From: Gemmatimonadales bacterium
GTDB lineage: Bacteria; Gemmatimonadota; Gemmatimonadetes; Gemmatimonadales; GWC2-71-9
Direction of reading: 5' to 3'
NCBI GenBank assembly: GCA_035517615.1
Contig: DATIYM010000007.1
Location: 166,402-230,401, forward strand
DNA: 64,000 bases
The notes below the pieces were generated by a model. It searched no databases. It saw only the letters and a program-made list of their open reading frames with translations, and was not told the DNA's origin. Positions within the stretch are counted from its first letter, which is position 1. The number at the start of each line of letters is the position of its first letter. The position numbers and the translations under genes were made by a program. Below are positions 49,094-62,225 of the stretch, piece after piece.

Positions 49094-49097
<4 letters not shown>
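48663..49097 (-). CDS. ruvX: Holliday junction resolvase-like RNase RuvX (YqgF)
   Basis: [17 protein letters not shown] and VVLGLPL motifs. The GTG start overlaps the rho stop (GTGA). Confidence 0.9.
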
Positions 49098-50347
<1,250 letters not shown>

Positions 50348-50455
50348 TTGTGCGTTGGCTCCGTTGTACGCTACGGCGGGCGGACCCCGGGTGTGCGGGA
50401 ATGAGCGCGTCGAAAGTGATGAGAACTAGGGAATTAACAGACGTGCGAGCGATTT

Positions 50456-50484
50456 ATAGTAGAGCGCGCTTCTATTTCAGTCAA
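50456..50484 (-). promoter_or_regulatory. putative sigma70-type promoter of rho
   Basis: On the minus strand: TTGACT (50484-50479), exactly 17 nt, then TACTAT (50461-50456). This leaves a leader of about 100 nt before the rho ATG. Confidence 0.45.
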
Positions 50485-50492
50485 GAGCGCTC

Positions 50493-51602
50493 GTGAGCCT
50501 TACCAGGTTCCTGATGGCGTGGCGCACGACCGTCCTTCCCGACCGGGAAGTCGTTGATGCGCTTGTACATCCATCGTACACCCACAGCTCTCCCGAGCTG
50601 ACTCAGGCGCTCGCGGATTGGCCTGGCGTGCATTACTGGTCGCGTGAGGTCGACGGGACTCACCTGATCCTGACGCGTCATTTGGGTCGTCCACGCCGCG
50701 AGCGGTGGGTGCTTCACGGACTGCTGTTCCTCGCGACGCTGTTGACCACCACCTTCGCTGGCGCCGTCCTCGCCGGCGCCATTCCGCTCGAGAACATTCT
50801 CGACGCGCTGAGTGGCGCAACTCGCGTGCCTTCACTCGCGGCCGAGTGGGCGAGAGGACTGCCTTTCTCCGTCCCGCTGCTTGTCATTCTGCTGTGCCAC
50901 GAAATGGGTCACTACATCACGGCACGGCGCTACGAGCTGGACGTTTCACCTCCCTACTTTATCCCCGTCCCGTTATTCCCCTGGACTCCCGTGGGCACGC
51001 TCGGCGCCTTCATCCGGCTGCGTACGCTGATGAGCGACCGCCGTCAGCTGCTCGACGTGGGGGCCATGGGGCCACTTGCCGGCTTCCTCGTAGCCGTGCC
51101 GGTGCTGTGGTTGGGATTGTTGGGAAGCCATCCGCTCCCCGGTCACGGTCCGCTGGCAGGAATGCTGGTGTCGATCGGCGGGATGGATTGGGCCCTGGGT
51201 GACTCGCTCGTTACCCTGGTACTTCGTCATCTCGTGCATCCGGGAGCGCAGGCAGTGCTCATGTCGCCGCTGGCATTCGCGGGCTGGTTCGGCCTGTTCG
51301 TGACCATGCTCAACCTGCTTCCGATGGCGCAGCTCGATGGCGGACACATTCTGTATGCCGCTCTGCCACGCTGGCATCGGCGTATCGCGGTGGCGATTCT
51401 CATACTCATTCTCGCATTGGGATGGCTCTGGAGCGGCTGGCTGTTGTGGGGAACGCTGGTGCTGCTGCTGTCCCGTGGACGGCTTGGTCATCCGCCAGTG
51501 CTCGACAGCTACCGACCGCTGCCCCGGTCGCGGACCCTGCTCGCCCTGGGTTCTCTGCTCCTGTTCGTCATCACCTTTGCGCCGGTGCCGTTTCGCATCT
51601 AG
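50493..51602 (+). CDS. M50 family (site-2 protease-like) membrane metalloprotease
   Basis: HEMGHY zinc motif and NLLPMAQLDGGH motif in a polytopic membrane protein. GTG start at 50493; ATG at 50514 is an alternative. Confidence 0.88.
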   Translation: MSLTRFLMAWRTTVLPDREVVDALVHPSYTHSSPELTQALADWPGVHYWSREVDGTHLILTRHLGRPRRERWVLHGLLFLATLLTTTFAGAVLAGAIPLENILDALSGATRVPSLAAEWARGLPFSVPLLVILLCHEMGHYITARRYELDVSPPYFIPVPLFPWTPVGTLGAFIRLRTLMSDRRQLLDVGAMGPLAGFLVAVPVLWLGLLGSHPLPGHGPLAGMLVSIGGMDWALGDSLVTLVLRHLVHPGAQAVLMSPLAFAGWFGLFVTMLNLLPMAQLDGGHILYAALPRWHRRIAVAILILILALGWLWSGWLLWGTLVLLLSRGRLGHPPVLDSYRPLPRSRTLLALGSLLLFVITFAPVPFRI

Positions 51603-52293: not shown

Positions 52294-54114
52294 TTACGCT
52301 GGCCCCGCACGCTGCGGCGCTTCCCGATCTGAGCCGCCGTTTTTCAAGTAGAGGAAAAGGAAAAGGACACTCGCCGCGCTCGCCGCGAATTTGTAGGGAG
52401 CGGCCGCGTCGCTCGCCGACAGCAACCCCTCGATCAATCCGGCAAGCACGAGCAGAGTCACCGTCGCCCCGACCATGCGGATGGCGGCGTGCCCCTCGAT
52501 GACCAGTGCATCCGCCCGGCTCCAGTCTCCCGGTGCGATCAGCGCACGGGCAATCCGGAGCCCGGCGCCACCCGCGATGAAGATGGCGGTCAACTCGAGA
52601 ATGCCGTGGCCGGCCACGAACGTGAGCAGCCAGTTCGCCACGTGGTAGTTCGCGAACAGGCCGAGTACCGCGCCGAAGAACAGTCCATTCGTGATCAGCA
52701 GGGTGAGCGTGCCGATTCCCGCGGTGATACCGAAGGCGAAGGCGAAGAATGCGACCTGCACGTTGTTCGTGATGATGCGCGACGCGACCACGGGCAGATA
52801 GAGAGAAGGGGCCTCGGCGTAGCCGACGCCTTCTTGCTGAGCGTGCGGCCCCATCCGCGCCCGCTCCACCATTTCCCCCGGGAGAATCTCCTCGCCGAGC
52901 GTGGGGTTTTCGCGCAGCAGGAGATATCCGGTGACCGCGGGAAGAGCGAACGCGAGCAGCGCGACCAGCACGTAGGGCCGCGATTGGATCACGGCGGCCG
53001 GAAACGATCTGAAAACCAGGTTCCACACCCGCACCGGCGTGAGCCTCGGCACGCCATATAGCGCATTGTGCCCGGCGCTCACGAGCCGTTCGAGATATTC
53101 GAGTACCCGTGGATCGACGCCGTAGGTGCGAGCGCGTGCGAGGTCGGCGGCGACCTCGCGATACTGCGACGCGAATCCCGGCAGGGCTTGAGCGCCCAGC
53201 TGTTCGAGACCGGTACGCTCCGCCTGGGTCGCCACGACGCGAAACGACTCCCACCGATCCCGTTTTTGCGCGATGAATCGCTCCGCGGTCACGGTGCTGC
53301 GGCCGATCCCGTCGACCTGTCGTGTCGCCAGCCGGCCACGGCGCCGTGATAACTCGTTCTCGTGGACCCCGGCGAGATAGAGCAGTGGGTCGGTGTCACG
53401 GCGCGGCACGCGCGGCTCGAACCGCGCCGCCAGCTCCGAGGTGAATCGGTCTCTGAGTCGCGGATCGAGCTGGTCGGCGCGCTCGATGAATTCGTCGAGC
53501 AGGCGGAACTCGTCGTCGGAAAGCTCAGGCGGCCCGAGGTCCAGGGCCTGCTGGGGATCGCCGGGCGGCGGAGCCGCGCTCGCGAGCTGCAGCTCGTCCG
53601 GCCGATCGCGCACGACCACGGTGCCCGCCACGATGTCGCCCAGGCGGCGGTTTTCGCGGTGCAACAACACGAAGGCGAGTCCCACGATGTAGAAGAAAAC
53701 CGGCTGCGCATCGACGACGCGCACAAGGTTGCGGACCGCGGCCGCGGAAAACGTGAGGGGGTGACCAGTATCCATCACCACCCGAATTCCGAGCAGCTGC
53801 TTGCCAGGCGTGCGTCCCCGGTGCAATCCCTCGAACAGGAGGAAGTAGCCCCAGAACAGCGTAAACGCGGCGAGCGTGATGACCACCGTGACGAGGGTGC
53901 CCGAGAGCCGCGCGTCGGCCTGCGGCAGCACCGCGCCGACGCCCACGACCAGCGCGAAGGCGAGAAACGCGAGGATCGCGGCGTCGCACAACGCGGCAAG
54001 GATTCTCGAGCCCAGCCCCGCGAGCTCGAGCTCGAGGACGACATGCTCGGGAGTCTCGATGTCCAGGCGCCTCGCAAACGAGGCGCCGGCCGGTACTCGC
54101 GTGGCAGGCGTCAC
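52294..54114 (-). CDS. RDD domain + SpoIIM/DUF95-like membrane protein fusion
   Basis: N-terminal RDD-type region RILAALCDAAILAFL...GRTPGKQLLGIRVV...RRLGDIVAGTVVV, a cytoplasmic linker, then a SpoIIM-like region NNVQVAFFAFAFGITAGIGT...GHGILELTAIFIAGGAG. Confidence 0.8.
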   Translation of the reverse strand: MTPATRVPAGASFARRLDIETPEHVVLELELAGLGSRILAALCDAAILAFLAFALVVGVGAVLPQADARLSGTLVTVVITLAAFTLFWGYFLLFEGLHRGRTPGKQLLGIRVVMDTGHPLTFSAAAVRNLVRVVDAQPVFFYIVGLAFVLLHRENRRLGDIVAGTVVVRDRPDELQLASAAPPPGDPQQALDLGPPELSDDEFRLLDEFIERADQLDPRLRDRFTSELAARFEPRVPRRDTDPLLYLAGVHENELSRRRGRLATRQVDGIGRSTVTAERFIAQKRDRWESFRVVATQAERTGLEQLGAQALPGFASQYREVAADLARARTYGVDPRVLEYLERLVSAGHNALYGVPRLTPVRVWNLVFRSFPAAVIQSRPYVLVALLAFALPAVTGYLLLRENPTLGEEILPGEMVERARMGPHAQQEGVGYAEAPSLYLPVVASRIITNNVQVAFFAFAFGITAGIGTLTLLITNGLFFGAVLGLFANYHVANWLLTFVAGHGILELTAIFIAGGAGLRIARALIAPGDWSRADALVIEGHAAIRMVGATVTLLVLAGLIEGLLSASDAAAPYKFAASAASVLFLFLYLKNGGSDREAPQRAGPA

Positions 54115-54143
54115 CCCGCCATGTTAATCACGGCAAAGGACTC

Positions 54144-54908
54144 GTGGCCAGCATTCCGCTTCGTCCCATGTCGACGGGAGAGATCCTCGATGCGTCGTTC
54201 GCTCTGCTGCGGCGCCACGCCGGGGTGTTTTTCGGCGTCGCCATCGTGTGCCAGGGTCCACCGACGGCCCTGCAGCTGTTCGTGCAATTCGGCGGCGGCG
54301 TGGGGGCCCACTTTGGGTTGTTCGTCTTCGCCCGCCTCCTGAACGGCCTGGGCTACCTGTTGATTACCGCCGCCTGCATTCGCGTGGTGTCGCAGGCGTA
54401 TCTGGGTCAGGAGCCGGGCATGGGGGAGGCGCTCGCGTTCGCCTGGCAGCGGGTGTGGCGAACGCTCAGCGCGGCGCTCTCGGCCGTTTTCCTCGCGACG
54501 CTGGCCGCATTCCTGCTCGTCGTACCCGGAATCATCGTCGCGTGCGGTTTTGCCGTGGCGGTGCAGGCGGCTGTCCTGGAATCCCTTCACTCGGGGAGCG
54601 ACGGGCTCGGGCGCTCCTGGGTGCTCACTCGCGGATACAAGTGGAAGGCGTTCGGGCTGTACGTGGTGGTGGGGATCATCGCCACCATTGTGCTGTTTGG
54701 ATTGAGTGTCGTCGGCGCAATCGCGACGGCGCTCTTCCCCCCGCTGCTCGTGCCCGTCGTCGTCAGCTTCGCGCTCGTCTTTCTGTTCGCCTATCCGTTC
54801 GTCAGCTGTGTCTTCACGCTGTTCTATTACGATCTGCGCGTGCGCCGAGAGGCGTTCGATCTCGAGCTGCTTGGACGGCATCTGGGTGTGGCCGTCGCGC
54901 CGGTGTGA
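54144..54908 (+). CDS. polytopic membrane protein (GDPD-membrane-domain-like), unknown function
   Basis: STGEILDASFALLRRH N-terminus and 5-6 TM helices, ending FYYDLRVRREAFDLE. This pattern is typical of membrane proteins found beside DUF4129/MoxR clusters. Confidence 0.7.
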   Translation: MASIPLRPMSTGEILDASFALLRRHAGVFFGVAIVCQGPPTALQLFVQFGGGVGAHFGLFVFARLLNGLGYLLITAACIRVVSQAYLGQEPGMGEALAFAWQRVWRTLSAALSAVFLATLAAFLLVVPGIIVACGFAVAVQAAVLESLHSGSDGLGRSWVLTRGYKWKAFGLYVVVGIIATIVLFGLSVVGAIATALFPPLLVPVVVSFALVFLFAYPFVSCVFTLFYYDLRVRREAFDLELLGRHLGVAVAPV

Positions 54909-55522
54909 CGGTCGCGCTTCAGCGCATCGATCCAGACAGCATTCGAGCGGCCCTGCGGACGGTGTTCGCGGGGCGCGAGTATCGCTGGCGGGGAACGAGC
55001 AGCGCGTGGCTGTGGGTGACGGACCACCTGTTGCGCGCGCTCGAGTGGCTCAGAGAGCTCCGGATTTCCTCGCCGTTCCGCTACTACCTGCTCGTGGCGT
55101 CGCTCACCATCATCCTCGGAGCGCTGCTGGTGCAGCTCGCCACCGTGGTTCGTCGCTCGGTTCGTTCGCGAGCGCCGGGGCCCACCGCGCCCCGAGACGT
55201 TCCCGCGCGTGACGCGCGCTGGCATCTCGCGGAGGCCGCGCGGGTTCTCGCGGCCGGCCAAATCGGCGAAGCGTTGGCGCACCGGTTCATCGCGATGCTC
55301 CTCGAGCTCGATGAGCGCGGCTTGATCACCTTCGACATCGCGAAGACGCCGGCCGAGTACGTCGCCGGGGCAAAGCTCGATCCGCGTACCCGTGCCGAGC
55401 TCGAGCAACTCGTCGACAGTCTCTACAGGCATCTGTTCGGCGCGGCCCCCGCCGACCTGACCACCTGGCAATCCTTCGACCGGAGGGCGGCGACGCTCGT
55501 GACCGATGCTCAAGCGGGGTGA
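54905..55522 (+). CDS. DUF4129 domain protein
   Basis: The GTG at 54905 makes GTGA with the upstream stop. One TM (YYLLVASLTIILGALLV), then ARWHLAEAARVLAAGQIGEALAHRFIAMLLELDERGLI...KTPAEY...LYRHLFG, the DUF4129 pattern. Confidence 0.7.
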   Translation: MTVALQRIDPDSIRAALRTVFAGREYRWRGTSSAWLWVTDHLLRALEWLRELRISSPFRYYLLVASLTIILGALLVQLATVVRRSVRSRAPGPTAPRDVPARDARWHLAEAARVLAAGQIGEALAHRFIAMLLELDERGLITFDIAKTPAEYVAGAKLDPRTRAELEQLVDSLYRHLFGAAPADLTTWQSFDRRAATLVTDAQAG

Positions 55523-56732
55523 ACGGGCGCTGGTCGGCGCTGCGGTGGGGGCGATTGCGGTTGCCGCGATTCTTGGCACCGTGCTCGCGCCCGCATCGAG
55601 CCTCACCGACCGGCGTCTGTCGACCTATCTCGCGGGTCCGTATGGCGCCAAAGGGCTGGGTCAGACATTGGCGCATCTCGGTGCGGAGGTCGTCCGCTGG
55701 CGCAAGCCATACTACATGCTTCCCGACAGCGCGCACCCGGACACCACGCGGTTGTTGGCATTTCTCGACGTTTCACTGCCGCGGACAGGACTCGAGACGG
55801 CAACGATCCGGGGCTACGTGGCCAACGGGGGACGCGTGTTCATCGCAGGCGTCGAGGGCATTGACGCATGCTTCGGATTCAAGACGCGGTTTGTCCGAGA
55901 CAACGCGTCGGGCGCCCTCAGGAATCCTGATGTTCGCCACCTGTACGCGGCGCGCCGCGTGCTCGAGCCCGTCAGTCCTGAGTCCCTCGCGCGGGCGCAT
56001 CCCGTCAGGCCCGGAGGCGAGCGTGCGTGCGTACCGCGTCCGGCCACGCGGGTGGATACGCTTCTCGTGACCAATGCGGGTGAGCTCGTCGCGGTACGCA
56101 TCAGGTGGCCCGGATCGGGCACGGCGACCCTCCTTGCCGACGAGCATTTCCTCACAAACCGCAGTCTCAAGGAAACGGATGCCGGAATCGTCGTGATTCC
56201 CTGGATTCTCTCGGGCGGCATTCGTAAAGTGGTGTTTGACGAATATCATCTCGGGTTTGGGAGCGGCGGATCGCTCGTCTCGGTATCGTGGGACTGGCTG
56301 CTCGACCATCCGCTGGGCTGGGCCATTCTGCAGGGTGTCGGCGTCGCTATCCTTGCGCTGGCCGTTCAGGCCGTGCGCTTCGGTCCAGTGCGGTGGCGGC
56401 GCGAACGCCGGCGCCGCTCCGCGCTCGAGCACGTAGACGCACTCGCGGCGGGGCTCGAACGATCCCACGGTGAAGATGTCGCGATTCAGATGATGATTTC
56501 AGGCCTGCGCCGGCGTTTGTCACCAGCCGGCCGCTCGAACACGGACAGCGCGCGCGAATGGATCGAGCGCCTCGAGGATGCGATGGTGAAGCCCGAGGGC
56601 CGCGCGGCCGCGCACCGTCTCCTGACGGCAATGATGGCTCCGGACATTCCGGACCGCCTGCTCATGGTCGCAACATCCGTGGAGGAAGTATGGGAGGAGC
56701 TTCGACCGCCCACGACGCGCAAGCCGTTCTGA
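55506..56732 (+). CDS. DUF4350-like protein
   Basis: N-terminal TM, then a periplasmic domain (GAKGLGQTLAHLG...GGRVFIAG), a second TM region and a cytoplasmic tail. The position between DUF4129 and MoxR matches the conserved cluster order. Confidence 0.6.
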   Translation: MLKRGERALVGAAVGAIAVAAILGTVLAPASSLTDRRLSTYLAGPYGAKGLGQTLAHLGAEVVRWRKPYYMLPDSAHPDTTRLLAFLDVSLPRTGLETATIRGYVANGGRVFIAGVEGIDACFGFKTRFVRDNASGALRNPDVRHLYAARRVLEPVSPESLARAHPVRPGGERACVPRPATRVDTLLVTNAGELVAVRIRWPGSGTATLLADEHFLTNRSLKETDAGIVVIPWILSGGIRKVVFDEYHLGFGSGGSLVSVSWDWLLDHPLGWAILQGVGVAILALAVQAVRFGPVRWRRERRRRSALEHVDALAAGLERSHGEDVAIQMMISGLRRRLSPAGRSNTDSAREWIERLEDAMVKPEGRAAAHRLLTAMMAPDIPDRLLMVATSVEEVWEELRPPTTRKPF

Positions 56733-57646
56733 CCGCTCTCGACCGGGTCGTGCTCGGTCAGGGCCGCGCCACGGGCGAGGCGCTCATCTGTCTGCTCGCG
56801 CGAGGCCACGTCCTGCTCGAGGGCGTCCCCGGCACGGCGAAGACGCTGCTCGTGCGGACGCTGTCGCTCGCGCTCGATGTCCGGTTTCAGCGCATTCAGT
56901 TCACGCCGGACTTGATGCCCGCCGACATTACCGGCGTCTCGCTGCTCTCGGGAACCCACGAATTCACGTTTCGCCCGGGACCCCTGTTCGCGGATCTCGT
57001 GCTGGCCGACGAGATCAACCGGGCGCCCGCAAAAACGCAGGCGGCGCTGCTCGAGGCGATGCAGGAACGTACAGTAACGGTCGACGGTGTGGCGCATCCG
57101 CTCTCGCGCACCTTTACCGTGTTCGCGACCGAGAATCCGGTCGAATTCGAAGGCACCTATCCACTCCCGGAAGCCGAGCTCGACCGATTCATGATGAAGG
57201 TGATGATCGACTATCCGTCGGCCGAGCTCGAGCAGGCGCTGCTCACGCGCTACAGCGAGGGATTCGAGGCCGACCGTCCGGACACCTACGGCGTCACTCC
57301 GCTCGCCGATGCCGCGGCGCTCGAACAGCTGCGGCGCGCGGCGGACGGGGTGCGGGTCGAGCCCCGGATCATCGAATACATCACCGCGATCGTCCGGGCC
57401 ACACGCACCGCCCCGGCCTTCACGCTGGGCGCGAGTCCGCGCGCGAGCGTGGCGTTGTTCAAGGCCGTGCGCGCCGCCGCGCTGCTCGAAAATCGGGACT
57501 ACGTCATTCCTGACGATGTGAAGCGGCTCGCTCCGGCTGTCCTGCGCCATCGCGTCGCCGTGGCTCCCGAGCTCGAGCTCGAAGGGACGACCCCGGATCT
57601 CGCGCTGCGCGCGCTGCTCGAGCACACTAAGGTCCCGACAGCCTGA
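56690..57646 (+). CDS. MoxR family AAA+ ATPase
   Basis: HVLLEGVPGTAKT (Walker A), LADEINRAPAKTQAALLEAMQE (Walker B/sensor), and FATENP. An internal ATG at 56690 overlaps the upstream gene by 43 nt. Confidence 0.9.
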   Translation: MGGASTAHDAQAVLTALDRVVLGQGRATGEALICLLARGHVLLEGVPGTAKTLLVRTLSLALDVRFQRIQFTPDLMPADITGVSLLSGTHEFTFRPGPLFADLVLADEINRAPAKTQAALLEAMQERTVTVDGVAHPLSRTFTVFATENPVEFEGTYPLPEAELDRFMMKVMIDYPSAELEQALLTRYSEGFEADRPDTYGVTPLADAAALEQLRRAADGVRVEPRIIEYITAIVRATRTAPAFTLGASPRASVALFKAVRAAALLENRDYVIPDDVKRLAPAVLRHRVAVAPELELEGTTPDLALRALLEHTKVPTA

Positions 57647-57648
57647 CG

Positions 57649-58980
57649 ATGCCGTACGTGTTTCCGCTGCCCACGCGAGCGGCGCTCGCCGTGGCCGCGG
57701 CATTCGCCGTCGTCGCGCTCGGCGGCATCTGGTTTGCCTCGGCCCTGAATCTGCTCCTCTTCTTCGATATCCTCCTGCTCCTCGGGGTCTGGTTCGATGC
57801 GCTCCGCGCGCCCCAGCCCGCACCGTATGCAATCACCGTCGAACGCGAATCCGCTCCGACGTTCACCGTGGGCCACGAGAGCGTGGTGACCTACCGCTGG
57901 GCGAACCAGGCACACCGCACGGCCCGGCTGCGTGTGCGGGAGGTGCGTCCCGACATTCTGGGCGGCGTCTTGCCTCCGCGCATCCTCGAGATCCCAGCTG
58001 GCGCCGAGCTGGTCGAGACCTCGCGCGTCGTACCGGTCTCGAGAGGCCGAGCCCACGGCGGGGCGTTCGTGGTCGAGAGCGTGGGGCCGTGGAGGCTCGG
58101 CCGGAGCCGGTCCCAGGTGCCGCTTCCCTGGGAGGCCACGGTGTATCCCGCGTCACCTCTGCGCGCGCGGCACGGCGCCGTTTCCGGCGTGCAACGGCGC
58201 CGCGAGCCCGGATCCGCGGCCGCGCGCAGACTGGGCGAAGGGCGCCTGTTCGAATCGCTGCGCGACTTCGTTGCGGGAGATGATCCGCGGCACATCGACT
58301 GGAAAGCCACCGCCCGGCGCCGCAAAGTCATCGCGCGCCAGTTCCAGGCGGAGCGGCGCCAGCATGTTCTCCTCGTACTCGATTGCGGCCGGCTCTTGAG
58401 CGCCGAGCTCGCGGGGCGCGCCGCGCTCGAGTACGCGGTGCAGGGAGCCGTCGAGCTGGCCCACGCGGCCATTCGGCAGGACGACGACGTCGGCGTGATG
58501 GCCTTCTCGGACGGCGTGCATCACTATGTCCCGCCACAGCGCGGCCGGCGCGCGCTGCGCGAGATCATGGATGTCCTCGCTCGCGTCGAGCCGCACCTCG
58601 TCGAGTCGGACTACCCGGGAGCCTTTCGCTACCTCGCCGTGCGCAATCGCAAGCGGGCGCTGACCGTGGTATTCACGGACGTCATCGACCGATTTGCGTC
58701 CGATGCCCTCGTTGCCAACGTCGCGAGTCTCAGACCACGGCATTTGCCCCTTGCCGTGACGCTCAGAAACCCCGATCTGGACCGGGCCGCGTTCCACCTC
58801 CCGCGCGACCGGCACGACGCTTTTCAGATTGCCGCGGCGCTCGAGCTGCTCCGCGCTCGCGGCGAGGCGCTCCTCCACATGCGTCGGGCCGGGGTCATGG
58901 TGTTGGACGTTCCCCCGGCCCGCGCCGCGCAAGCTGCGGCCGCACAATATCTTGAGTTGAAGCGTCGCGGCAGGCTCTAG
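57649..58980 (+). CDS. DUF58 (vWA-like) protein, MoxR partner
   Basis: Two N-terminal TM helices, then GDDPRHIDWKATARR (DUF58 hallmark) and a vWA-like VLLVLDCG...FSD...VVFTD pattern. Confidence 0.88.
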   Translation: MPYVFPLPTRAALAVAAAFAVVALGGIWFASALNLLLFFDILLLLGVWFDALRAPQPAPYAITVERESAPTFTVGHESVVTYRWANQAHRTARLRVREVRPDILGGVLPPRILEIPAGAELVETSRVVPVSRGRAHGGAFVVESVGPWRLGRSRSQVPLPWEATVYPASPLRARHGAVSGVQRRREPGSAAARRLGEGRLFESLRDFVAGDDPRHIDWKATARRRKVIARQFQAERRQHVLLVLDCGRLLSAELAGRAALEYAVQGAVELAHAAIRQDDDVGVMAFSDGVHHYVPPQRGRRALREIMDVLARVEPHLVESDYPGAFRYLAVRNRKRALTVVFTDVIDRFASDALVANVASLRPRHLPLAVTLRNPDLDRAAFHLPRDRHDAFQIAAALELLRARGEALLHMRRAGVMVLDVPPARAAQAAAAQYLELKRRGRL

Positions 58981-59046
58981 AGCGGTGCTGTTGGACCGGG
59001 AAACCCCGTCCTTTAGATTGGGGCCCGCTTTTCCCCGGGAAAATGG

Positions 59047-60663
59047 ATGGCACCGAAGGGTGTCGCGGCCGCCGCGGTCTGTCTCGTCGTCTCTCTCGCA
59101 GCCTGCGTGTATCCGGCCGAGCGGGATGCGGACGTGCATGTCACGCTCACCCCCCTCCACATCCTGCTGCGCGGCGGCGATACCGTGGCGACGGCTCGGG
59201 CATGGCAGATGATGGGCACGAACGACTCGGCGCCGATCTCAAACGTCGTGTTCACGTGGACGTCGAGTGATCCCGGAATCGCGACCGTAGATGCAAGTGG
59301 CCGCGTCGTGGGCGTCAATTCCGGTGTCGTCGTCATCACTGCCGCGGCGGCCAATTACGATCGGGAGTCGCGCGCCGCAAGCGAAACGCTGCGTGTCTCC
59401 GCGCCGCTCGAAATCGACAGTATCCGACCGAAAACGGTGCAGTACGGCCAAATGGTTGCGATCTACGGCGTGGGAGTGGATTCCATTTTTTCCGCGACGC
59501 TGAGCGGCGCCCCGCTCATCCCGGTGCCCTATTCGGACACGGTGTATGCCGGCGGTACCGCGCGATCGAGATGGTGGGTCCCGCCGCCGGCACGCACTGA
59601 CTCATTGTTTTTCCTCGGCATCTCGGGAGGGAACGGCATCTTCGGGTACGTGCACGGCGACACCACGAACGTCCTCGAGCGCGATCTCTACGAGCCGAAT
59701 GACACGAATTTCCAGCTGCTCGACCTCGACGCCCCGCCACCGTTTCCTCAATACCCGGCCCTCGTGTTCTACAACCCGGCCCTCGCATTCGAAGTCCTAG
59801 GGCGGACCCAGAAGTCGGGAGCCGACTGGTATCGTCTGAAGCAGGCCGAGCAGCGCGATGTCACAGTCATCCTGTCGGCGCCCGATATCGCGGGCACGTT
59901 CGTCACCTACCTCACCGATTCACTGGGGTGGAGCAGCGCCGGGCAGAAGTTCGTGATCGGGCATGACTCCTGGACGTTCGGTCCCGGTATTCACGCCTGC
60001 CACGGACTGCCGTTCACACCGAGCGAAGCGATTGCCGACTCGACGGTCGTCGCGTTCAAGGCGCTTCGGGCGGGGACGCTCGACGCGCTCGCAGTCTACG
60101 CGAAAGCGGGGCGCTACGGCCTCGGCATCATCGCGGGGTACCAGAGCGAGCTCCCGGCCGATGCGCATGAAGACGACAATTCCTGCAATGCCGCGGACCT
60201 GCGCGGCGTTGCCGCTACGCCTTTCCGCGATACCCTGACGATCGAGAACCCGCACGACATGGACTGGATCCGGTTCCACTATACGAATCCGGGCCTGGGA
60301 TACACGGCGCAAATCCGCATGCACGCGTTCACCGGAATCCATCCCGACTCTCTCAAGGACCTGGATCTGTATGTGTTCGCGGTTCCCAACCCCGGCGATG
60401 TCGCGCTGCAGCTGCAGGCGGCCGATACGTCAGCGGGATCGGACGTAAATCTGCGACCCAATCTCGCCACAGGCGACTATTACCTGGCCGTCGTGGATTA
60501 CGCGGGGACCGCGACGACGTATGAGGTGTGCGTCGCGCCGGTGAACACGCTACTCGGCAACGGATCGTGCGCCGCGACGGGATTCCCCGCGCCTCCCGAG
60601 CGTGCGGCAATCAAGTCCGCAGTACGGCGCGCCGCCGCGCCGCGACTGCCACTCGCCCGATGA
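59047..60663 (+). CDS. lipoprotein with Big_2-like, IPT-like and two PPC (pre-peptidase C-terminal)-like modules
   Basis: Lipobox SLAAC. FTWTSSDPGIATVDASGRVVGVNSGVVVITA (Big_2). YEPNDT...ADWYRL and EDDNSCNAADL...DMDWIRF...GDYYLAVVDY (PPC-like). Confidence 0.75.
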   Translation: MAPKGVAAAAVCLVVSLAACVYPAERDADVHVTLTPLHILLRGGDTVATARAWQMMGTNDSAPISNVVFTWTSSDPGIATVDASGRVVGVNSGVVVITAAAANYDRESRAASETLRVSAPLEIDSIRPKTVQYGQMVAIYGVGVDSIFSATLSGAPLIPVPYSDTVYAGGTARSRWWVPPPARTDSLFFLGISGGNGIFGYVHGDTTNVLERDLYEPNDTNFQLLDLDAPPPFPQYPALVFYNPALAFEVLGRTQKSGADWYRLKQAEQRDVTVILSAPDIAGTFVTYLTDSLGWSSAGQKFVIGHDSWTFGPGIHACHGLPFTPSEAIADSTVVAFKALRAGTLDALAVYAKAGRYGLGIIAGYQSELPADAHEDDNSCNAADLRGVAATPFRDTLTIENPHDMDWIRFHYTNPGLGYTAQIRMHAFTGIHPDSLKDLDLYVFAVPNPGDVALQLQAADTSAGSDVNLRPNLATGDYYLAVVDYAGTATTYEVCVAPVNTLLGNGSCAATGFPAPPERAAIKSAVRRAAAPRLPLAR

Positions 60664-62225
60664 CGAGCAGCACGATGGAATGCATTCAGTGCCATACGCC
60701 GGTGCCGGCCAACAGCCGGTACTGCTCCGCGTGCGGAGCCGATCAGACGGGCGGTGGGGCAGCGCCGAATACCACGAATGCCGCCGCGCTCGAAGTGAGG
60801 TTGCAAGCCATCGTGCAGGGGAAGTACAAGATCGCGCGCATACTGGGGAAGGGCGGGATGGGCACCGTGTATCTCGCGCACGATATCACCCTCGAACGCG
60901 AAGTCGCGATCAAGGTCCTCCCACCTGATATCGGGCAGGATGAGCAAATTATCCGGCGCTTTCAGCAGGAGGCCAAGACGGCCGCGAAGCTCGACCATCC
61001 CAACATCATCCCGATCTATCGCGTCGAGAGCGAAGGTGGACTCAACTACTTCGTGATGAAGTACGTCTCGGGCACATCGCTTGAAGACGTGCTCGAAACG
61101 CGAGAACCGCTGGCGCTCGACTACATCCAGCGCGTGCTCTGGGAAGCCGGCTGTGCCCTGGGCCACGCGCATCAGCGCGGCGTGGTGCACCGGGATGTGA
61201 AGCCGGCCAACATCATGTTCGATCATGACGGTCGCGTGATGTTGGCCGACTTTGGAATCTCCAAAGCCTTGCAGGCCGCCACGGGATTCACCGCGACCGG
61301 AATGATCATCGGTACGCCGCACTACATGGCCCCGGAGCAGGCGAAGGGAACGCCGGTCGATGGGCGGGCCGACCAGTACTCGCTGGGCGTGGTTGGCTAC
61401 CGGATGATCACGGGTGAGCTGCCGTTCAGCGGCGACTCGATTCACACGATCCTCTACAAACAGATCTTCGAGCCCGTCCCGACCCCGAAGGCGCTGCGCG
61501 CCGAAATCCCGGGATTCCTTTCCGCCGCGATCACCCGGGCCATGTCCAAGGACCCGGAGCTGCGGTTTCCGACGATGGAGGCGTTCGCGACGGCGGTCTG
61601 GCCCGAGCAGCCGGTGTCGGCCGTGGCGACCACCACACCACAGCGCCCCATTCGCGGCCCCGGCACCCGCGCGGCGGCGGATGCGCCGACCCAGGTTTCG
61701 GTGCCGCCCGCCTATGCGGCGACCACGCCGCTGCCGGCCGCGCGTCAGCCGATCGCTCCCCCACCCAGACGCCGCTCGCATGCTGGTGTGATTGGTGTCG
61801 CGCTCGCTGCCGTTCTCGCGATCGGCGGCTACCTCGTGTTCGGACGTGGCGCAGAGCCTCAGGCTGCCACGCCAACGGTTCCCACGCATGTGGACACCGT
61901 GCGTTTGGCGGACACGGTCCGTGTTCCCGCCTCACCCTCCACCTCCCCGCCTCCCGCAGCACAACATCCGCGAGTGCGTGTGGCGCCGGTCGTGACGGCT
62001 CCCACCGACGCGCAGGGATATCTCACGGTCAATGCCGACCCCTACGGCGAGCTGTACGTGGATGGCATCGACGTGGGGCCCACCCCCGTGGTGCGGTACG
62101 CGGTACCGCGAGGTGGCCACACGATTCGCATCGTCCGCGAGGGATATCGGAGTATTACGGACCACGTACAGGTCGAGGCGGGAAACACCGTTCCCAAGCG
62201 GTATACGCTCATTCCCGAGGGATGA
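60660..62225 (+). CDS. Ser/Thr protein kinase with N-terminal zinc ribbon, TM helix and C-terminal PEGA domain
   Basis: The ATG at 60660 makes ATGA with the upstream stop. CIQCHTPVPANSRYCSACG. Kinase motifs GKGGMGTVY, VAIKVL, HRDVKPANI, DFG and APE. TM VIGVALAAVLAIGGYLVF. PEGA-like YLTVNADPYGELYVDG...GGHTIRIVREGY. Confidence 0.9.
   Translation: MTSSTMECIQCHTPVPANSRYCSACGADQTGGGAAPNTTNAAALEVRLQAIVQGKYKIARILGKGGMGTVYLAHDITLEREVAIKVLPPDIGQDEQIIRRFQQEAKTAAKLDHPNIIPIYRVESEGGLNYFVMKYVSGTSLEDVLETREPLALDYIQRVLWEAGCALGHAHQRGVVHRDVKPANIMFDHDGRVMLADFGISKALQAATGFTATGMIIGTPHYMAPEQAKGTPVDGRADQYSLGVVGYRMITGELPFSGDSIHTILYKQIFEPVPTPKALRAEIPGFLSAAITRAMSKDPELRFPTMEAFATAVWPEQPVSAVATTTPQRPIRGPGTRAAADAPTQVSVPPAYAATTPLPAARQPIAPPPRRRSHAGVIGVALAAVLAIGGYLVFGRGAEPQAATPTVPTHVDTVRLADTVRVPASPSTSPPPAAQHPRVRVAPVVTAPTDAQGYLTVNADPYGELYVDGIDVGPTPVVRYAVPRGGHTIRIVREGYRSITDHVQVEAGNTVPKRYTLIPEG

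What the first reader, a model, noticed from the sequence alone, without database searches (positions are those of the whole stretch)
52294..58980. Conserved-but-uncharacterised envelope module: RDD-SpoIIM fusion | membrane protein - DUF4129 - DUF4350 - MoxR - DUF58
Six genes form a tight unit. The 606-aa RDD/SpoIIM-like protein is divergent from a five-gene plus-strand operon, with only 29 nt (54115-54143) between the two start codons. The five plus-strand genes are translationally linked: a GTGA overlap at 54905, a 17-nt overlap at 55506, a 43-nt overlap at 56690 and a 2-nt gap at 57649.

MoxR (GVPGTAKT, LADEINR) paired with DUF58 (DWKATARR, vWA-like) is a known chaperone/partner pair whose substrates are mostly unknown. 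DUF4129 is otherwise known as the C-terminal domain of TgpA-type membrane transglutaminases, which also follow MoxR-DUF58 pairs. No transglutaminase core is present here. No component has an established function in this context. The domain mix (AAA+ remodeller, vWA, four polytopic or bitopic membrane proteins) suggests an ATP-driven membrane-protein assembly or quality-control machine.
Basis: partly seen in the sequence, partly recalled or inferred. Interest (0 to 1): 0.72.

Follow-up and report, generated by a model that had tools for sequence, protein, structure and literature searches.

The report
Conserved MoxR–DUF58 membrane module, function unknown
This Gemmatimonadales bacterium carries six tightly packed genes for an ATP-driven chaperone and five membrane proteins; the same set occurs together in at least nine bacterial phyla, including mycobacteria, and nobody yet knows what it does.

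Summary
All six ORFs, their overlaps and all the domain calls were confirmed: RDD plus SpoIIM, DUF4129, DUF4350, MoxR/AAA_3 and DUF58.

The unnamed membrane protein (g2) is a diverged GPDPase_memb/DUF975-like protein. The linker in the fusion protein is Pfam DUF8413.

The adjacency is not chance. 45 of 45 assessable Gemmatimonadota loci carry the full set. The same set also occurs in Chloroflexota, Planctomycetota, Poribacteria, Myxococcota, Alpha- and Gammaproteobacteria and Actinomycetota; the literature places Rv3689-Rv3695 of M. tuberculosis in the same set.

Two independent gene fusions argue for physical complexes: RDD–SpoIIM in Gemmatimonadota, and g2–DUF4129 in Gammaproteobacteria. RDD plus SpoIIM is a core pair that also occurs without the MoxR operon.

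The module's DUF58 lacks the canonical metal-binding (MIDAS) serines and has a conserved DxG[R/K/H] instead. The DUF4350 ectodomain models as a GldG/IFT52-like (GIFT) fold.

No experimental function exists. Makarova et al. (2015) already noted parts of this neighbourhood.

Best reading: a cytoplasmic MoxR–DUF58 motor remodels a SpoIIM/RDD-centred inner-membrane complex that acts on the envelope. This is an inference, not a demonstration.

It is a genuine open problem, but not a discovery specific to this window.

The parts
52294..54114 (-). g1: 606-aa RDD–DUF8413–SpoIIM fusion, a polytopic inner-membrane protein
   Evidence: ORF. Pfam RDD and SpoIIM. A 100% identical database protein, P0121, carries PF06271, PF28475 and PF01944 and is named 'stage II sporulation protein M [Gemmatimonadales bacterium]'. 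The fusion is present in 62/66 Gemmatimonadota loci; the rest are cut by contig ends.
53623..54024 (-). RDD domain of g1 (aa 31-164), three to four transmembrane helices
   Evidence: PF06271, E 1.8e-22, full-length match 1-137/137. Hydropathy. AF2 helices at 34-62, 65-97, 119-135 and 140-151, with only low to moderate confidence.
53056..53517 (-). Cytoplasmic helical linker of g1 (about aa 200-353), equal to Pfam DUF8413. It is the N-terminal extension that stand-alone SpoIIM homologues of this module also carry.
   Evidence: PF28475/DUF8413 is precomputed on orthologues. AF2 gives long helices at 200-353 with pLDDT mostly above 90. The custom 'mid' HMM hits next to SpoIIM in the great majority of loci from every phylum sampled (87 ORF hits; not called for Arthrobacter L006 or the end-truncated L073).
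52417..52962 (-). SpoIIM (DUF95) domain of g1 (aa 385-566), a five- to six-helix transmembrane bundle with invariant polar residues
   Evidence: PF01944, E 7e-29, match 1-162/163. Residues invariant across phyla: N451, N476, H503, G504, E507, R533, E562 (alignments). High-confidence AF2 helices at 363-598.
54115..54143 (.). 29-nt spacer between the divergent start codons of g1 and g2
   Evidence: Sequence. No sigma-70-like promoter match in the region. The divergent arrangement is conserved in Gemmatimonadota.
54144..54908 (+). g2: 254-aa polytopic membrane protein, a diverged GPDPase_memb/DUF975/UPF0259-like family member
   Evidence: No significant Pfam hit on its own; best is PF10110 at E 0.059. 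Its Nonomuraea homologue (phmmer E 6e-10) hits PF10110 at E 6e-11 and DUF7847 at E 1.6e-7. The L008 orthologue has weak UPF0259/DUF975 hits. The Actinomadura orthologue hits DUF7847 and GPDPase_memb. In Gammaproteobacteria it is fused to DUF4129 (hhalign 96.4%).
54905..55522 (+). g3: 205-aa single-pass membrane protein with a C-terminal cytoplasmic DUF4129 domain
   Evidence: PF13559, E 1.7e-6, above the gathering cut-off. One transmembrane helix at about 58-82, followed by RRSVRSR. Orthologues in all full modules.
55506..56732 (+). g4: 408-aa bitopic DUF4350 protein. It has an N-terminal signal anchor, a periplasmic alpha/beta (GIFT-like) domain, a transmembrane helix and a cytoplasmic helical tail.
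   Evidence: PF14258, E 6e-12. AF2 pLDDT 84.6: helix 4-27, alpha/beta domain 49-251, transmembrane helix 269-291, helical tail 307-399. Best Foldseek hits are the IFT52 GIFT domain, the GH164/beta-galactosidase accessory domain and OST48/Wbp1, at E about 1e-3.
56690..57646 (+). g5: 318-aa MoxR-family AAA+ ATPase (MRP-type), cytoplasmic
   Evidence: AAA_3 E 1.4e-59 and AAA_lid_2 E 2.6e-22. Closest solved structure is 2R44, E 1.8e-67. Walker A GVPGTAKT and Walker B LADEINR are intact. No transmembrane segment.
57649..58980 (+). g6: 443-aa DUF58 protein. It has an N-terminal transmembrane hairpin and a cytoplasmic vWA-like domain in which DxG[R/K/H] replaces the MIDAS DxSxS; the ~140 residues between them are uncharacterised.
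   Evidence: PF01882 E 1.6e-30 and VWA_2 E 6.7e-6. Transmembrane hairpin at 9-54. Conserved 'D.GR' against 'DVSGS' in a Bat-type DUF58. No solved relative by sequence.

Best explanation
The six genes encode one inner-membrane machine that is inherited as a unit.

A cytoplasmic MoxR AAA+ ATPase (g5) works with DUF58 (g6). DUF58 is a vWA-like partner that lacks the MIDAS serines and is tethered to the membrane by an N-terminal hairpin.

Together they use ATP to assemble, or conformationally switch, a complex of the other membrane proteins:
- the single-pass DUF4129 protein (g3), whose helical domain is cytoplasmic;
- the GPDPase_memb-like polytopic protein (g2);
- the bitopic DUF4350 protein (g4), with a GIFT-type ectodomain in the periplasm and a helical tail in the cytoplasm;
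- the RDD–SpoIIM pair (g1), with its cytoplasmic DUF8413 helical domain.

The three cytoplasmic helical domains are the likely handles for the ATPase. The output is extracytoplasmic: control of an envelope process centred on the SpoIIM-family membrane core. Most likely this is cell-wall or surface-polymer remodelling, by analogy with SpoIIM in the DMP complex, and with the Bat and TgpA modules.

Shown here: gene content, order, domain identities, topology predictions, cross-phylum co-inheritance and the two fusions.

Inferred: physical complex formation, which proteins are the ATPase's clients, and the envelope target.

The confidence of 0.5 is for the whole statement. That the genes form one co-inherited functional module is about 0.9; the specific mechanism and envelope target are about 0.35-0.4.
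For: Tight translational coupling of the five plus-strand genes.

Co-inheritance:
- Full set in 45/45 assessable Gemmatimonadota loci.
- The same set in Anaerolineaceae L076, Poribacteria L081, Planctomycetota L084 and L077, Myxococcota L086, and Methylophaga L087, Lysobacter L088 and Catenovulum L007.
- Also in Rhizobium L001, Paracoccus L091, and Nocardia L004, Nonomuraea L005 and Actinomadura L093.
- The mycobacterial Rv3689-Rv3695 orthologues are listed with these annotations in PMC8191103.
- No eighth family recurs across phyla.

Rosetta-stone fusions:
- RDD–SpoIIM.
- g2–DUF4129 in Gammaproteobacteria: hhalign 96.4% and 98.7%.
- A possible DUF4350–MoxR fusion, P0078.

Topology:
- MoxR is soluble.
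- Positive residues follow the DUF58 hairpin, the DUF4129 transmembrane helix and the second DUF4350 transmembrane helix, which places those domains in the cytoplasm.
- The DUF4350 ectodomain has a GIFT-like fold, in line with the GldG similarity reported in PMC5898192.

Envelope link from related systems and data:
- SpoIIM scaffolds the peptidoglycan hydrolases SpoIID and SpoIIP (PMC5898192, PMC9600426).
- Rv3694c and Rv3695 co-purify with the divisome protein Rv0954, alongside PbpA and LamA (PMC8093794).
- The Bat/RL3499-3502 MoxR–DUF58 operons give envelope defects (cited in PMC5700661).
- The PA2875-PA2874-tgpA operon encodes an essential periplasmic transglutaminase (PMC3507681).
- In Melainabacteria the RDD/SpoIIM pair lies next to a Beta-lactamase2/Peptidase_S11-like gene.
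Against: - There are no experimental data for any component in this context.
- The phenotypic hints are anecdotal. Rv3691 was needed for slow growth in a TraSH screen (PMC2685279). An Rv3690 SNV occurred in one double-mutant D-cycloserine-resistant strain (bioRxiv 10.1101/114116).
- RDD–SpoIIM occurs without any MoxR operon within 10 kb in Melainabacteria, Blastocatellia and Arthrobacter. Haloarchaeal DUF4129–DUF58–MoxR–DUF4350 clusters lack RDD/SpoIIM. The two halves can therefore function apart.
- The SpoIIM/RDD model has no structural relative in the PDB, so nothing constrains its activity.
- The GIFT-fold match is marginal: E about 1e-3, TM-score about 0.4 on the target.
- No peptidoglycan enzyme is consistently linked to the module.
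Confidence: 0.5

Rival explanations
1. The module is a secretion or surface-protein export apparatus, as Makarova, Galperin and Koonin proposed in 2015 for the archaeal DUF4350–MoxR–vWA neighbourhood. In this view the GldG-like DUF4350 ectodomain is part of the conduit or a substrate-handling subunit.
For: PMC5898192 section 3.2. The DUF4350 ectodomain resembles the GIFT domains of GldG and IFT52 and also OST48/Wbp1, which are subunits of large membrane transport or glycosylation machines. In Gemmatimonadota a Big_2 surface-type protein follows DUF58 in 19/30 loci. The haloarchaeal cluster includes DUF1616 and a CARDB protein.
Against: No candidate channel, secretin or substrate gene recurs across bacterial phyla. 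The Big_2 neighbour is restricted to Gemmatimonadota. MoxR ATPases are known as maturation chaperones, not translocation motors (established knowledge; PMC3893208 abstract). The bacterial module contains SpoIIM/RDD rather than the archaeal S-layer-like proteins.
Confidence: 0.12
2. The RDD–SpoIIM pair is a transporter or ion-translocating unit, for example a cation/proton antiporter or small-molecule flippase. The MoxR–DUF58–DUF4129–DUF4350 set assembles or gates it.
For: An RDD protein from Halobacillus andaensis was reported to act as a Na+(Li+,K+)/H+ antiporter (PMC5996927). SpoIIM has invariant polar residues inside its transmembrane helices (N451, N476, H503, E507, R533, E562), which suggests a binding or catalytic site rather than a passive scaffold. 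The pair persists without MoxR in some lineages.
Against: The B. subtilis RDD protein SppI showed no salt or pH phenotype and instead acts as a protease regulator (PMC7568657). Foldseek found no transporter-like relative (best E 0.4). SpoIIM in Bacillus is described as a scaffold for hydrolases.
Confidence: 0.15
3. Two independent units lie side by side: an RDD–SpoIIM membrane pair and a MoxR–DUF58–DUF4350–DUF4129 operon. They are linked only by synteny, not by function.
For: The pair occurs alone in Melainabacteria (L070, L071, L079), Blastocatellia or Acidobacteriota (L078, L080, L083) and Arthrobacter (L006). The archaeal MoxR/DUF4350 cluster lacks the pair. In the window, g1 is on the opposite strand.
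Against: Adjacency is retained despite rearranged order and orientation in eight phyla or classes. This includes collinear single-strand operons in Planctomycetota, Myxococcota, and Gamma- and Alphaproteobacteria. Synteny alone does not survive such distances. The flanking genes (Rho, M50, kinase) are not conserved outside Gemmatimonadota.
Confidence: 0.06
4. The module is an anti-phage or conflict system of the MoxR–vWA type.
For: MoxR–vWA ternary systems have been proposed as conflict systems (Kaur et al. 2020, cited in PMC12067865). g5 gives a secondary bpMoxR Pfam hit of 39 bits. g1 has a weak hit (E 2.9e-6) to the C-terminal part (model positions 381-473 of 476) of PADLOC PD-T4-6.
Against: No PADLOC system matches. 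There is no beta-propeller or effector domain. The locus is present and syntenic in every assessable Gemmatimonadota genome, next to rho, which is the pattern of a housekeeping locus rather than a defence island. AAA_3 scores 200 bits against 39 for bpMoxR.
Confidence: 0.02

Closest known systems
Mycobacterial Rv3689–Rv3695 locus (moxR2 region) and its orthologues in Actinomycetota
   Same: The same gene set: membrane protein (GPDPase_memb-like), DUF4129-type protein, DUF4350, MoxR, DUF58, SpoIIM and RDD. The five-gene order is also the same (PMC8191103; L004, L005 and L093).
   Different: In Actinomycetota, RDD and SpoIIM are separate, divergently oriented genes. In the window they are one 606-aa polypeptide. 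The mycobacterial locus is equally uncharacterised.
Archaeal arCOG01314 (DUF4350)–MoxR–vWA neighbourhood, the 'predicted secretion or membrane remodelling complex' of Makarova, Galperin and Koonin 2015 (PMC5898192)
   Same: A DUF4350 protein with an ectodomain and a C-terminal transmembrane helix, a COG0714 MoxR ATPase and a DUF58/vWA protein lie together. DUF4129 is also present in the haloarchaeal example L092.
   Different: The archaeal clusters carry S-layer-like or Ig-like proteins (DUF1616, CARDB) and have no RDD/SpoIIM. The bacterial module has SpoIIM/RDD and a GPDPase_memb-like protein. The same paper notes in one sentence that bacterial SpoIIM homologues neighbour vWA and COG0714 genes.
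Bat (Bacteroides aerotolerance) / RL3499-RL3502 type MoxR–DUF58 operons
   Same: An MRP-type MoxR is followed directly by DUF58 and then by membrane proteins. Envelope or stress phenotypes are reported.
   Different: The Bat operons continue with DUF4381, BatA and BatB (transmembrane vWA), TPR proteins and BatD. Their DUF58 is short (about 290-316 aa), and in Parabacteroides it keeps the DxSxS MIDAS motif. None of BatA, BatB or BatD, and no TPR protein, is present here; g4 has only a sub-threshold DUF4381 hit (E 0.00039, 21.2 bits against a cut-off of 27.2).
TgpA module of Pseudomonas aeruginosa (PA2875–PA2874–tgpA)
   Same: An upstream gene pair is co-transcribed with a polytopic membrane protein that exposes a periplasmic domain (PMC3507681). 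That PA2875 and PA2874 are MoxR and DUF58, and that TgpA-type proteins end in DUF4129, is my own knowledge and the Pfam description, not tested here. The gammaproteobacterial g2–DUF4129 fusion has a comparable architecture, with a multi-transmembrane N-terminus and a C-terminal DUF4129.
   Different: No transglutaminase core and no DUF3488 is present here. The periplasmic domain is supplied by a separate DUF4350 protein.
SpoIIM of the Bacillus DMP engulfment complex
   Same: The same Pfam family, PF01944, with a full-length match.
   Different: No SpoIID or SpoIIP partner was detected: no extra family recurs in the flanks. The organism is a non-sporulating Gemmatimonadales. This subfamily carries an extra N-terminal cytoplasmic DUF8413 domain and is paired or fused with RDD.
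Bifidobacterial PFNA cluster (Ser/Thr kinase – FN3 – MoxR – DUF58 – transglutaminase)
   Same: MoxR–DUF58 lies adjacent to an Ig-like surface protein and a Ser/Thr kinase. In the window, a Big_2 protein and a kinase with zinc-ribbon and PEGA domains follow DUF58.
   Different: The gene order and the membrane partners differ. The kinase association holds only within Gemmatimonadota (20/30 loci).

Membership tests
MoxR AAA+ ATPase (MRP-type) | AAA_3 core with intact Walker A and B motifs, plus the AAA_lid_2 domain | tested here: met
   AAA_3 E 1.4e-59 (1-131/131) and AAA_lid_2 E 2.6e-22. GVPGTAKT and LADEINR are in the translation. 2R44 matches at E 1.8e-67.
MoxR AAA+ ATPase (MRP-type) | The gene is immediately followed by a DUF58/vWA partner gene | tested here: met
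   g6 (DUF58) starts 2 nt after the g5 stop. The same pairing holds in all loci that have MoxR.
DUF58 (PF01882) / vWA superfamily | Pfam DUF58 match above the gathering score | tested here: met
   106.3 bits against a cut-off of 23.4.
DUF58 (PF01882) / vWA superfamily | Canonical MIDAS motif DxSxS for metal-dependent ligand binding | tested here: not met
   The window has LDCGRLL. The module-type DUF58 proteins from all the phyla aligned share D-x-G-[R/K/H]. A Bat-type Parabacteroides DUF58 has DVSGS.
SpoIIM / DUF95 (PF01944) | Full-length Pfam match | tested here: met
   E 7e-29, profile positions 1-162 of 163.
SpoIIM as a DMP-complex subunit (sporulation engulfment) | Partnership with the SpoIID and SpoIIP peptidoglycan hydrolases in a sporulating organism | tested here: not met
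   No additional family recurs in the +/-10 kb flanks of the 22 loci compared, plus the window. No SpoIID or SpoIIP Pfam hit appears among the neighbours scanned. The organism is a Gemmatimonadales MAG. The rest of the genome was not searched.
RDD family (PF06271) | Full-length Pfam match to the three-transmembrane RDD domain | tested here: met
   E 1.8e-22, profile positions 1-137 of 137.
RDD family as Na+/H+ antiporter | Cation/proton antiport activity | not testable with these tools
   Reported only for one Halobacillus protein (PMC5996927). B. subtilis SppI showed no such phenotype (PMC7568657).
DUF4129 (PF13559) | Pfam match above the gathering score, C-terminal to a transmembrane helix | tested here: met
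   28.4 bits against 24.8, at aa 128-193, after the transmembrane helix at about 58-82. The Nonomuraea orthologue scores E 5.6e-12.
DUF4350 (PF14258) / GIFT-like ectodomain | Pfam match, with a signal anchor, an ectodomain and a C-terminal transmembrane helix | tested here: met
   46.6 bits against 30.4.
DUF4350 (PF14258) / GIFT-like ectodomain | Structural similarity to the GldG/IFT52 GIFT domain | tested here: inconclusive
   The top Foldseek hits are 5fms and 5fmr (IFT52 N-terminal domain), with E 1e-3 and TM-score 0.39 on the target. This is consistent with the HHpred result in PMC5898192 but is marginal on its own.
GPDPase_memb / DUF975 / UPF0259-like membrane proteins (g2) | Pfam match above the gathering score | tested here: inconclusive
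   g2 itself reaches only E 0.059. Assignment is transitive through orthologues: Nonomuraea PF10110 at E 6e-11, and Actinomadura with DUF7847 and GPDPase_memb.
Bat aerotolerance operon | BatA and BatB (transmembrane vWA), BatC and BatE (TPR), BatD and DUF4381 downstream of MoxR–DUF58 | tested here: not met
   None of these families passes its Pfam cut-off in the six products or their neighbours; g4 has only a sub-threshold DUF4381 hit at E 0.00039, 21.2 bits against 27.2.
TgpA-type transglutaminase module | Transglut_core (PF01841) and a DUF3488 N-terminal membrane domain | tested here: not met
   No such Pfam hit in any product.
MoxR–vWA conflict/defence systems | A beta-propeller or effector third component, or a match to a defence-system model | tested here: not met
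   PADLOC gave only weak partial hits. No beta-propeller is present.

The most novel reading that the evidence does not exclude
The DUF8413-SpoIIM/RDD pair is not a passive scaffold. It is an intramembrane enzyme or lipid-linked-precursor handler, with invariant Asn/His/Glu/Arg residues in the transmembrane core. The MoxR–DUF58–DUF4129–DUF4350–GPDPase_memb set switches its activity by ATP-driven remodelling. On this reading the seven-domain module is a near-universal, previously unrecognised bacterial envelope-homeostasis machine, active in monoderms and diderms alike, including M. tuberculosis.
Probability: 0.2. Interest if true: 0.8.

Novelty: new variant of a known kind. Interest (0 to 1): 0.45.

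Why it matters
MoxR–vWA pairs are among the most widespread AAA+ chaperone systems, yet most have no known client.

This variant keeps a fixed set of five membrane partners over at least nine bacterial phyla, including the tuberculosis pathogen (Rv3689–Rv3695). It probably performs a basic envelope-related task that is absent from current models.

The comparative results here give concrete handles for experiments:
- two natural fusions that predict which subunits touch;
- a DUF58 signature that lacks the MIDAS serines;
- a core RDD–SpoIIM pair that can stand alone;
- a short list of invariant membrane-embedded residues to mutate.

The window itself adds only one more, typical, example of the module.

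Tried and rejected
1. Homology between the DUF4129 domain and the cytoplasmic tail of DUF4350. Both gave weak DUF4381 hits, but hhalign probability was only 15.6%. Rejected.

2. Fold search of the RDD–DUF8413–SpoIIM model against the PDB. The best E was 0.4, so there is no meaningful relative.

3. Sequence searches of DUF58 and DUF4129 against solved structures found nothing.

4. NCBIfam found no family for five of the six proteins, and only distant chelatase or GvpN hits for MoxR.

5. tblastn of the DUF4350 protein against plasmids found no match. The family is too divergent for single-sequence search.

6. The first six-sequence SpoIIM alignment was too divergent for the genome scan. A five-sequence alignment worked.

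7. A search for an eighth conserved partner in the flanks found only antisense shadow ORFs and generic response regulators.

8. The promoter and terminator scan of the locus was uninformative.

9. The defence-system reading was checked with PADLOC and rejected.

10. The profile search with diverse SpoIIM sequences returned only Streptosporangiales in its top 120. It was useful for the AF2 alignment but not for taxonomic breadth.

11. The co-regulation of the M. chelonae orthologues (log2 change -6 to -8 over a contiguous block that includes glpFK) was not used as functional evidence. It may reflect a regional effect.

Full report
**1. What is in the sequence**

The region is 66-70% G+C. It holds six real genes among many high-GC shadow ORFs:
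- g1, 52294-54114 (-), 606 aa.
- g2, 54144-54908 (+), 254 aa.
- g3, 54905-55522 (+), 205 aa.
- g4, 55506-56732 (+), 408 aa.
- g5, 56690-57646 (+), 318 aa.
- g6, 57649-58980 (+), 443 aa.

There are 29 nt between the divergent starts, a GTGA overlap at 54905, a 17-nt overlap at 55506, a 43-nt overlap at 56690 (with GGAGGA upstream of the ATG) and a 2-nt gap at 57649. The internal starts chosen for g3 and g5 agree with ortholog lengths (206 and 318 aa).

The flanks are:
- Rho, 49094-50347 (-).
- An M50 peptidase, 50493-51602 (+).
- A Big_2 protein, 59047-60663 (+).
- A Ser/Thr kinase with zinc-ribbon and PEGA domains, 60528-62225 (+).

The window comes from a Gemmatimonadales MAG. The 100% identical database copy of g1 carries that label.

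**2. Domain calls**

Pfam confirms every call:
- RDD (E 1.8e-22) and SpoIIM (E 7e-29) in g1.
- DUF4129 in g3 (E 1.7e-6, above the gathering score).
- DUF4350 in g4 (E 6e-12).
- AAA_3 (E 1.4e-59) and AAA_lid_2 in g5.
- DUF58 (E 1.6e-30) with a weaker VWA_2 hit in g6.
- No transglutaminase core anywhere.

The g1 linker is Pfam DUF8413 (PF28475), precomputed on orthologues.

g2 has no significant hit of its own. Its Nonomuraea homologue (phmmer E 6e-10) is GPDPase_memb (E 6e-11) and DUF7847. The Actinomadura and L008 orthologues carry GPDPase_memb/DUF7847 and weak UPF0259/DUF975 hits. So g2 is a diverged member of that polytopic membrane superfamily.

NCBIfam has no models for five of the six proteins.

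**3. Topology and structure**

Hydropathy and charge distribution and the cross-phylum alignments give the following picture.
- MoxR is soluble.
- DUF58 has an N-terminal transmembrane hairpin (aa 9-54). Arg-rich sequence follows it, so the roughly 390-aa remainder is cytoplasmic.
- The DUF4129 protein has one transmembrane helix followed by RRSVRSR, so the DUF4129 domain is cytoplasmic.
- DUF4350 has a signal anchor, a roughly 230-aa ectodomain, a transmembrane helix followed by RFGP...RRERRRR, and a roughly 110-aa cytoplasmic tail.
- g1 has an RDD membrane domain, a roughly 220-aa charged cytoplasmic linker and a five- to six-helix SpoIIM bundle.

AlphaFold2 on g4 gave pLDDT 84.6. The model shows an alpha/beta ectodomain (aa 49-251), a transmembrane helix (269-291) and a helical tail (307-399).

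Its best PDB matches are the IFT52 GIFT domain, the accessory domain of GH164 and beta-galactosidases, and OST48/Wbp1. These matches are marginal (E about 1e-3). They agree with the GldG and flavodoxin-like similarity reported by HHpred in PMC5898192.

AlphaFold2 on g1 gave pLDDT 76. It predicts long cytoplasmic helices for DUF8413 and a confident SpoIIM bundle. Foldseek found no PDB relative.

The MoxR is closest to structure 2R44. DUF58 and DUF4129 have no solved relatives by sequence.

**4. Is the adjacency meaningful?**

Yes. The genome scan was anchored on the DUF8413-SpoIIM part and returned 80 loci. I scanned these, plus plasmid loci and one metagenomic locus, with HMMs built from the module proteins.

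Within Gemmatimonadota:
- 45 of the 45 loci with at least 5 kb of upstream sequence have the complete set, in the same order as the window (DUF58, MoxR, DUF4350, DUF4129 and g2 on one strand, divergent from RDD-DUF8413-SpoIIM).
- 62 of 66 loci show the RDD–SpoIIM fusion. The remaining four are cut by contig ends.

Outside the phylum the full set is adjacent, in varying order and orientation, in:
- Anaerolineaceae (L076).
- Poribacteria (L081).
- Planctomycetota (L084, and L077 cut by the contig end).
- Myxococcota (L086).
- Methylophaga (L087), Lysobacter (L088) and a Catenovulum plasmid (L007).
- Rhizobium phaseoli (L001) and Paracoccus aminovorans (L091) plasmids.
- Nocardia, Nonomuraea and Actinomadura (L004, L005, L093).

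An M. chelonae RNA-seq table lists the same annotations for the orthologues of Rv3689, Rv3691, Rv3692, Rv3693, Rv3694c and Rv3695 (PMC8191103).

The flanking genes of the window (Rho, M50, Big_2, kinase) are conserved only within Gemmatimonadota, in 19-29 of 30-44 assessable loci, and nowhere else. No eighth family recurs across phyla.

So the unit is these seven domains: RDD, DUF8413-SpoIIM, GPDPase_memb-like, DUF4129, DUF4350, MoxR and DUF58.

**5. New details from the comparison**

(a) RDD and SpoIIM are separate, adjacent genes everywhere outside Gemmatimonadota. The fusion in the window is lineage-specific and acts as a Rosetta stone for an RDD–SpoIIM interaction. An exhaustive HMMER search found 3,646 50%-identity clusters of this SpoIIM subfamily, 2,352 of them at E <= 1e-10. 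Many of the top hits are about 570-640 aa with the match in the C-terminal half, as expected for fusions.

(b) In Gammaproteobacteria, one protein of about 520 aa replaces g2 and g3. Profile-profile comparison shows that it is a g2–DUF4129 fusion: 96.4% probability for residues 19-255 against g2, and 98.7% for residues 306-506 against g3. This is a second Rosetta stone.

(c) In Alphaproteobacteria, DUF805 membrane proteins sit where g2 would be.

(d) The RDD–SpoIIM pair also occurs with no MoxR operon within 10 kb. This is the case in Melainabacteria/Obscuribacterales, Blastocatellia and Arthrobacter. Conversely, a haloarchaeal cluster has DUF4129 (on a 716-aa MG4-domain protein), DUF58, MoxR, DUF4350 and DUF1616 but no RDD or SpoIIM. 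The system is therefore modular. It combines a MoxR–DUF58–DUF4350–DUF4129 driver set with an RDD–SpoIIM core.

(e) The module's DUF58 is a long form of about 430-480 aa. It has a conserved D-x-G-[R/K/H] where vWA domains have the DxSxS MIDAS motif. A Bat-type Parabacteroides DUF58 retains DVSGS. Classical metal-mediated ligand capture by this vWA domain is therefore unlikely.

(f) SpoIIM has invariant polar residues within its helices: N451, N476, H503, G504, E507, R533 and E562. This pattern suggests a functional site.

**6. What is known**

Full-text searches found no functional study of this gene set.

Makarova, Galperin and Koonin (2015, PMC5898192) described the archaeal DUF4350–MoxR–vWA neighbourhood as a predicted secretion or membrane-remodelling complex. 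They also remarked that bacterial SpoIIM homologues neighbour a vWA protein and a COG0714 ATPase.

Incidental data on the mycobacterial orthologues:
- Rv3694c and Rv3695 co-purify with the divisome-associated Rv0954, together with PbpA and LamA (PMC8093794).
- Rv3691 was required for, and induced at, slow growth in BCG (PMC2685279).
- An Rv3690 SNV appeared in one double-mutant D-cycloserine-resistant strain (bioRxiv 10.1101/114116).

Related MoxR–DUF58 modules point to the envelope:
- the Bat and RL3499-3502 operons;
- the PA2875-PA2874-tgpA operon with an essential periplasmic transglutaminase (PMC3507681);
- the bifidobacterial PFNA cluster, in which MoxR is a kinase substrate.

For RDD proteins, one is reported as a Na+/H+ antiporter (PMC5996927) and another, SppI, as a regulator of the SppA protease (PMC7568657).

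**7. Most likely mechanism**

The best-supported reading is a single inner-membrane machine. The cytoplasmic MoxR hexamer and its membrane-tethered, MIDAS-less DUF58 partner act on the cytoplasmic helical domains of the membrane subunits: DUF4129, the DUF4350 tail and DUF8413. By doing so they assemble or switch a complex whose extracytoplasmic face is the DUF4350 GIFT domain and the SpoIIM/RDD loops. That face acts on the envelope.

Gene content, topology, co-inheritance and the fusions are shown. The contacts, the clients and the envelope target are inferred.

The rivals are a secretion apparatus, a MoxR-controlled transporter, two independent neighbouring units, and a defence system. PADLOC found no defence-system match, and the locus behaves as a syntenic housekeeping region.

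**8. Verdict**

The window's locus is a typical Gemmatimonadota member of a very widespread module. That module is annotated in many genomes and was partly noted in the literature, but it is functionally unknown.

Relative to characterised MoxR–vWA systems (RavA–ViaA, Bat, TgpA) it is a distinct variant with its own membrane partners. The interest lies in the module as an open problem, which includes its M. tuberculosis copy. It does not lie in anything peculiar to this window beyond the RDD–SpoIIM fusion.

Noticed in passing
window 59047-62225: A 538-aa Big_2 (Ig-like) protein and a Ser/Thr kinase with zinc-ribbon and PEGA domains directly follow DUF58. The pair is found next to the module in 19-20 of 30 assessable Gemmatimonadota loci and in L008, but in no other phylum. 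It recalls the bifidobacterial PFNA cluster (kinase–FN3–MoxR–DUF58–transglutaminase), in which MoxR is a kinase substrate (PMC12067865). As listed, the two ORFs overlap by 136 nt, so the kinase start is probably downstream of 60528.
   Followed up: partly
window 49094-51602: Rho (-) and an M50 site-2-type peptidase (+) lie on the g1 side of the module. They are conserved there in about 60% of Gemmatimonadota loci (27/44 and 26/44). This fits a vertically inherited chromosomal region.
   Followed up: partly
L070 11061-12176 (also L071, L074, L079): In Melainabacteria/Obscuribacterales the RDD/SpoIIM pair has no MoxR operon nearby. It is followed by a Beta-lactamase2/Peptidase_S11-like gene (E 2.8e-62) and two very large proteins of unknown family. 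This is a possible hint of a peptidoglycan link, but it is single-lineage synteny.
   Followed up: partly
L093 15840-18993; L005 2317-2997; L076 2349-3053: In Actinomadura the module is divergent from a gene trio with Pfam domains Response_reg/Trans_reg_C, HAMP-HisKA and LpqB_N, which looks like mtrA-mtrB-lpqB. OmpR-type response regulators also sit divergently upstream of the g2 homologue in Nonomuraea and in an Anaerolineaceae MAG.
   Followed up: no
P0078: A 695-aa database protein combines DUF4350 with the MoxR domains (PF14258 plus AAA_3 and AAA_lid_2). The two genes overlap by 43 nt in the window. P0078 may therefore be a real fusion or a frameshift artefact in a 6.5-kb contig.
   Followed up: no
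L003 5400-12340 (Curtobacterium flaccumfaciens plasmid pCff1): The module is present but fragmented. SpoIIM, the g2–DUF4129-type protein, MoxR and DUF58 each give several short hits, and the record is annotated as small hypothetical proteins. It looks like a decaying (pseudogenised) plasmid copy.
   Followed up: no
L092 2066-12266 (Halogeometricum borinquense pHBOR01): This haloarchaeal variant has a tubulin/FtsZ-family gene, DUF1616, a 716-aa MG4-domain protein ending in DUF4129, DUF58, MoxR and DUF4350, with a CARDB protein nearby. DUF4129 thus caps different extracytoplasmic proteins in different lineages.
   Followed up: partly
window 53362-54342 (+), 54111-54881 (-), 56486-57832 (-), 58153-59160 (-): Long antisense ORFs of 250-450 aa overlap the real genes. 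Their homologues in other loci are simply the antisense of conserved genes, so they are high-GC shadow ORFs and not genes.
   Followed up: yes
literature, PMC4694148: The M. smegmatis SigF regulon contains a different MoxR–DUF58 operon, MSMEG_6606-6612, made up of four hypothetical genes plus DUF58 and MoxR. I did not establish whether it is related to this module.
   Followed up: no
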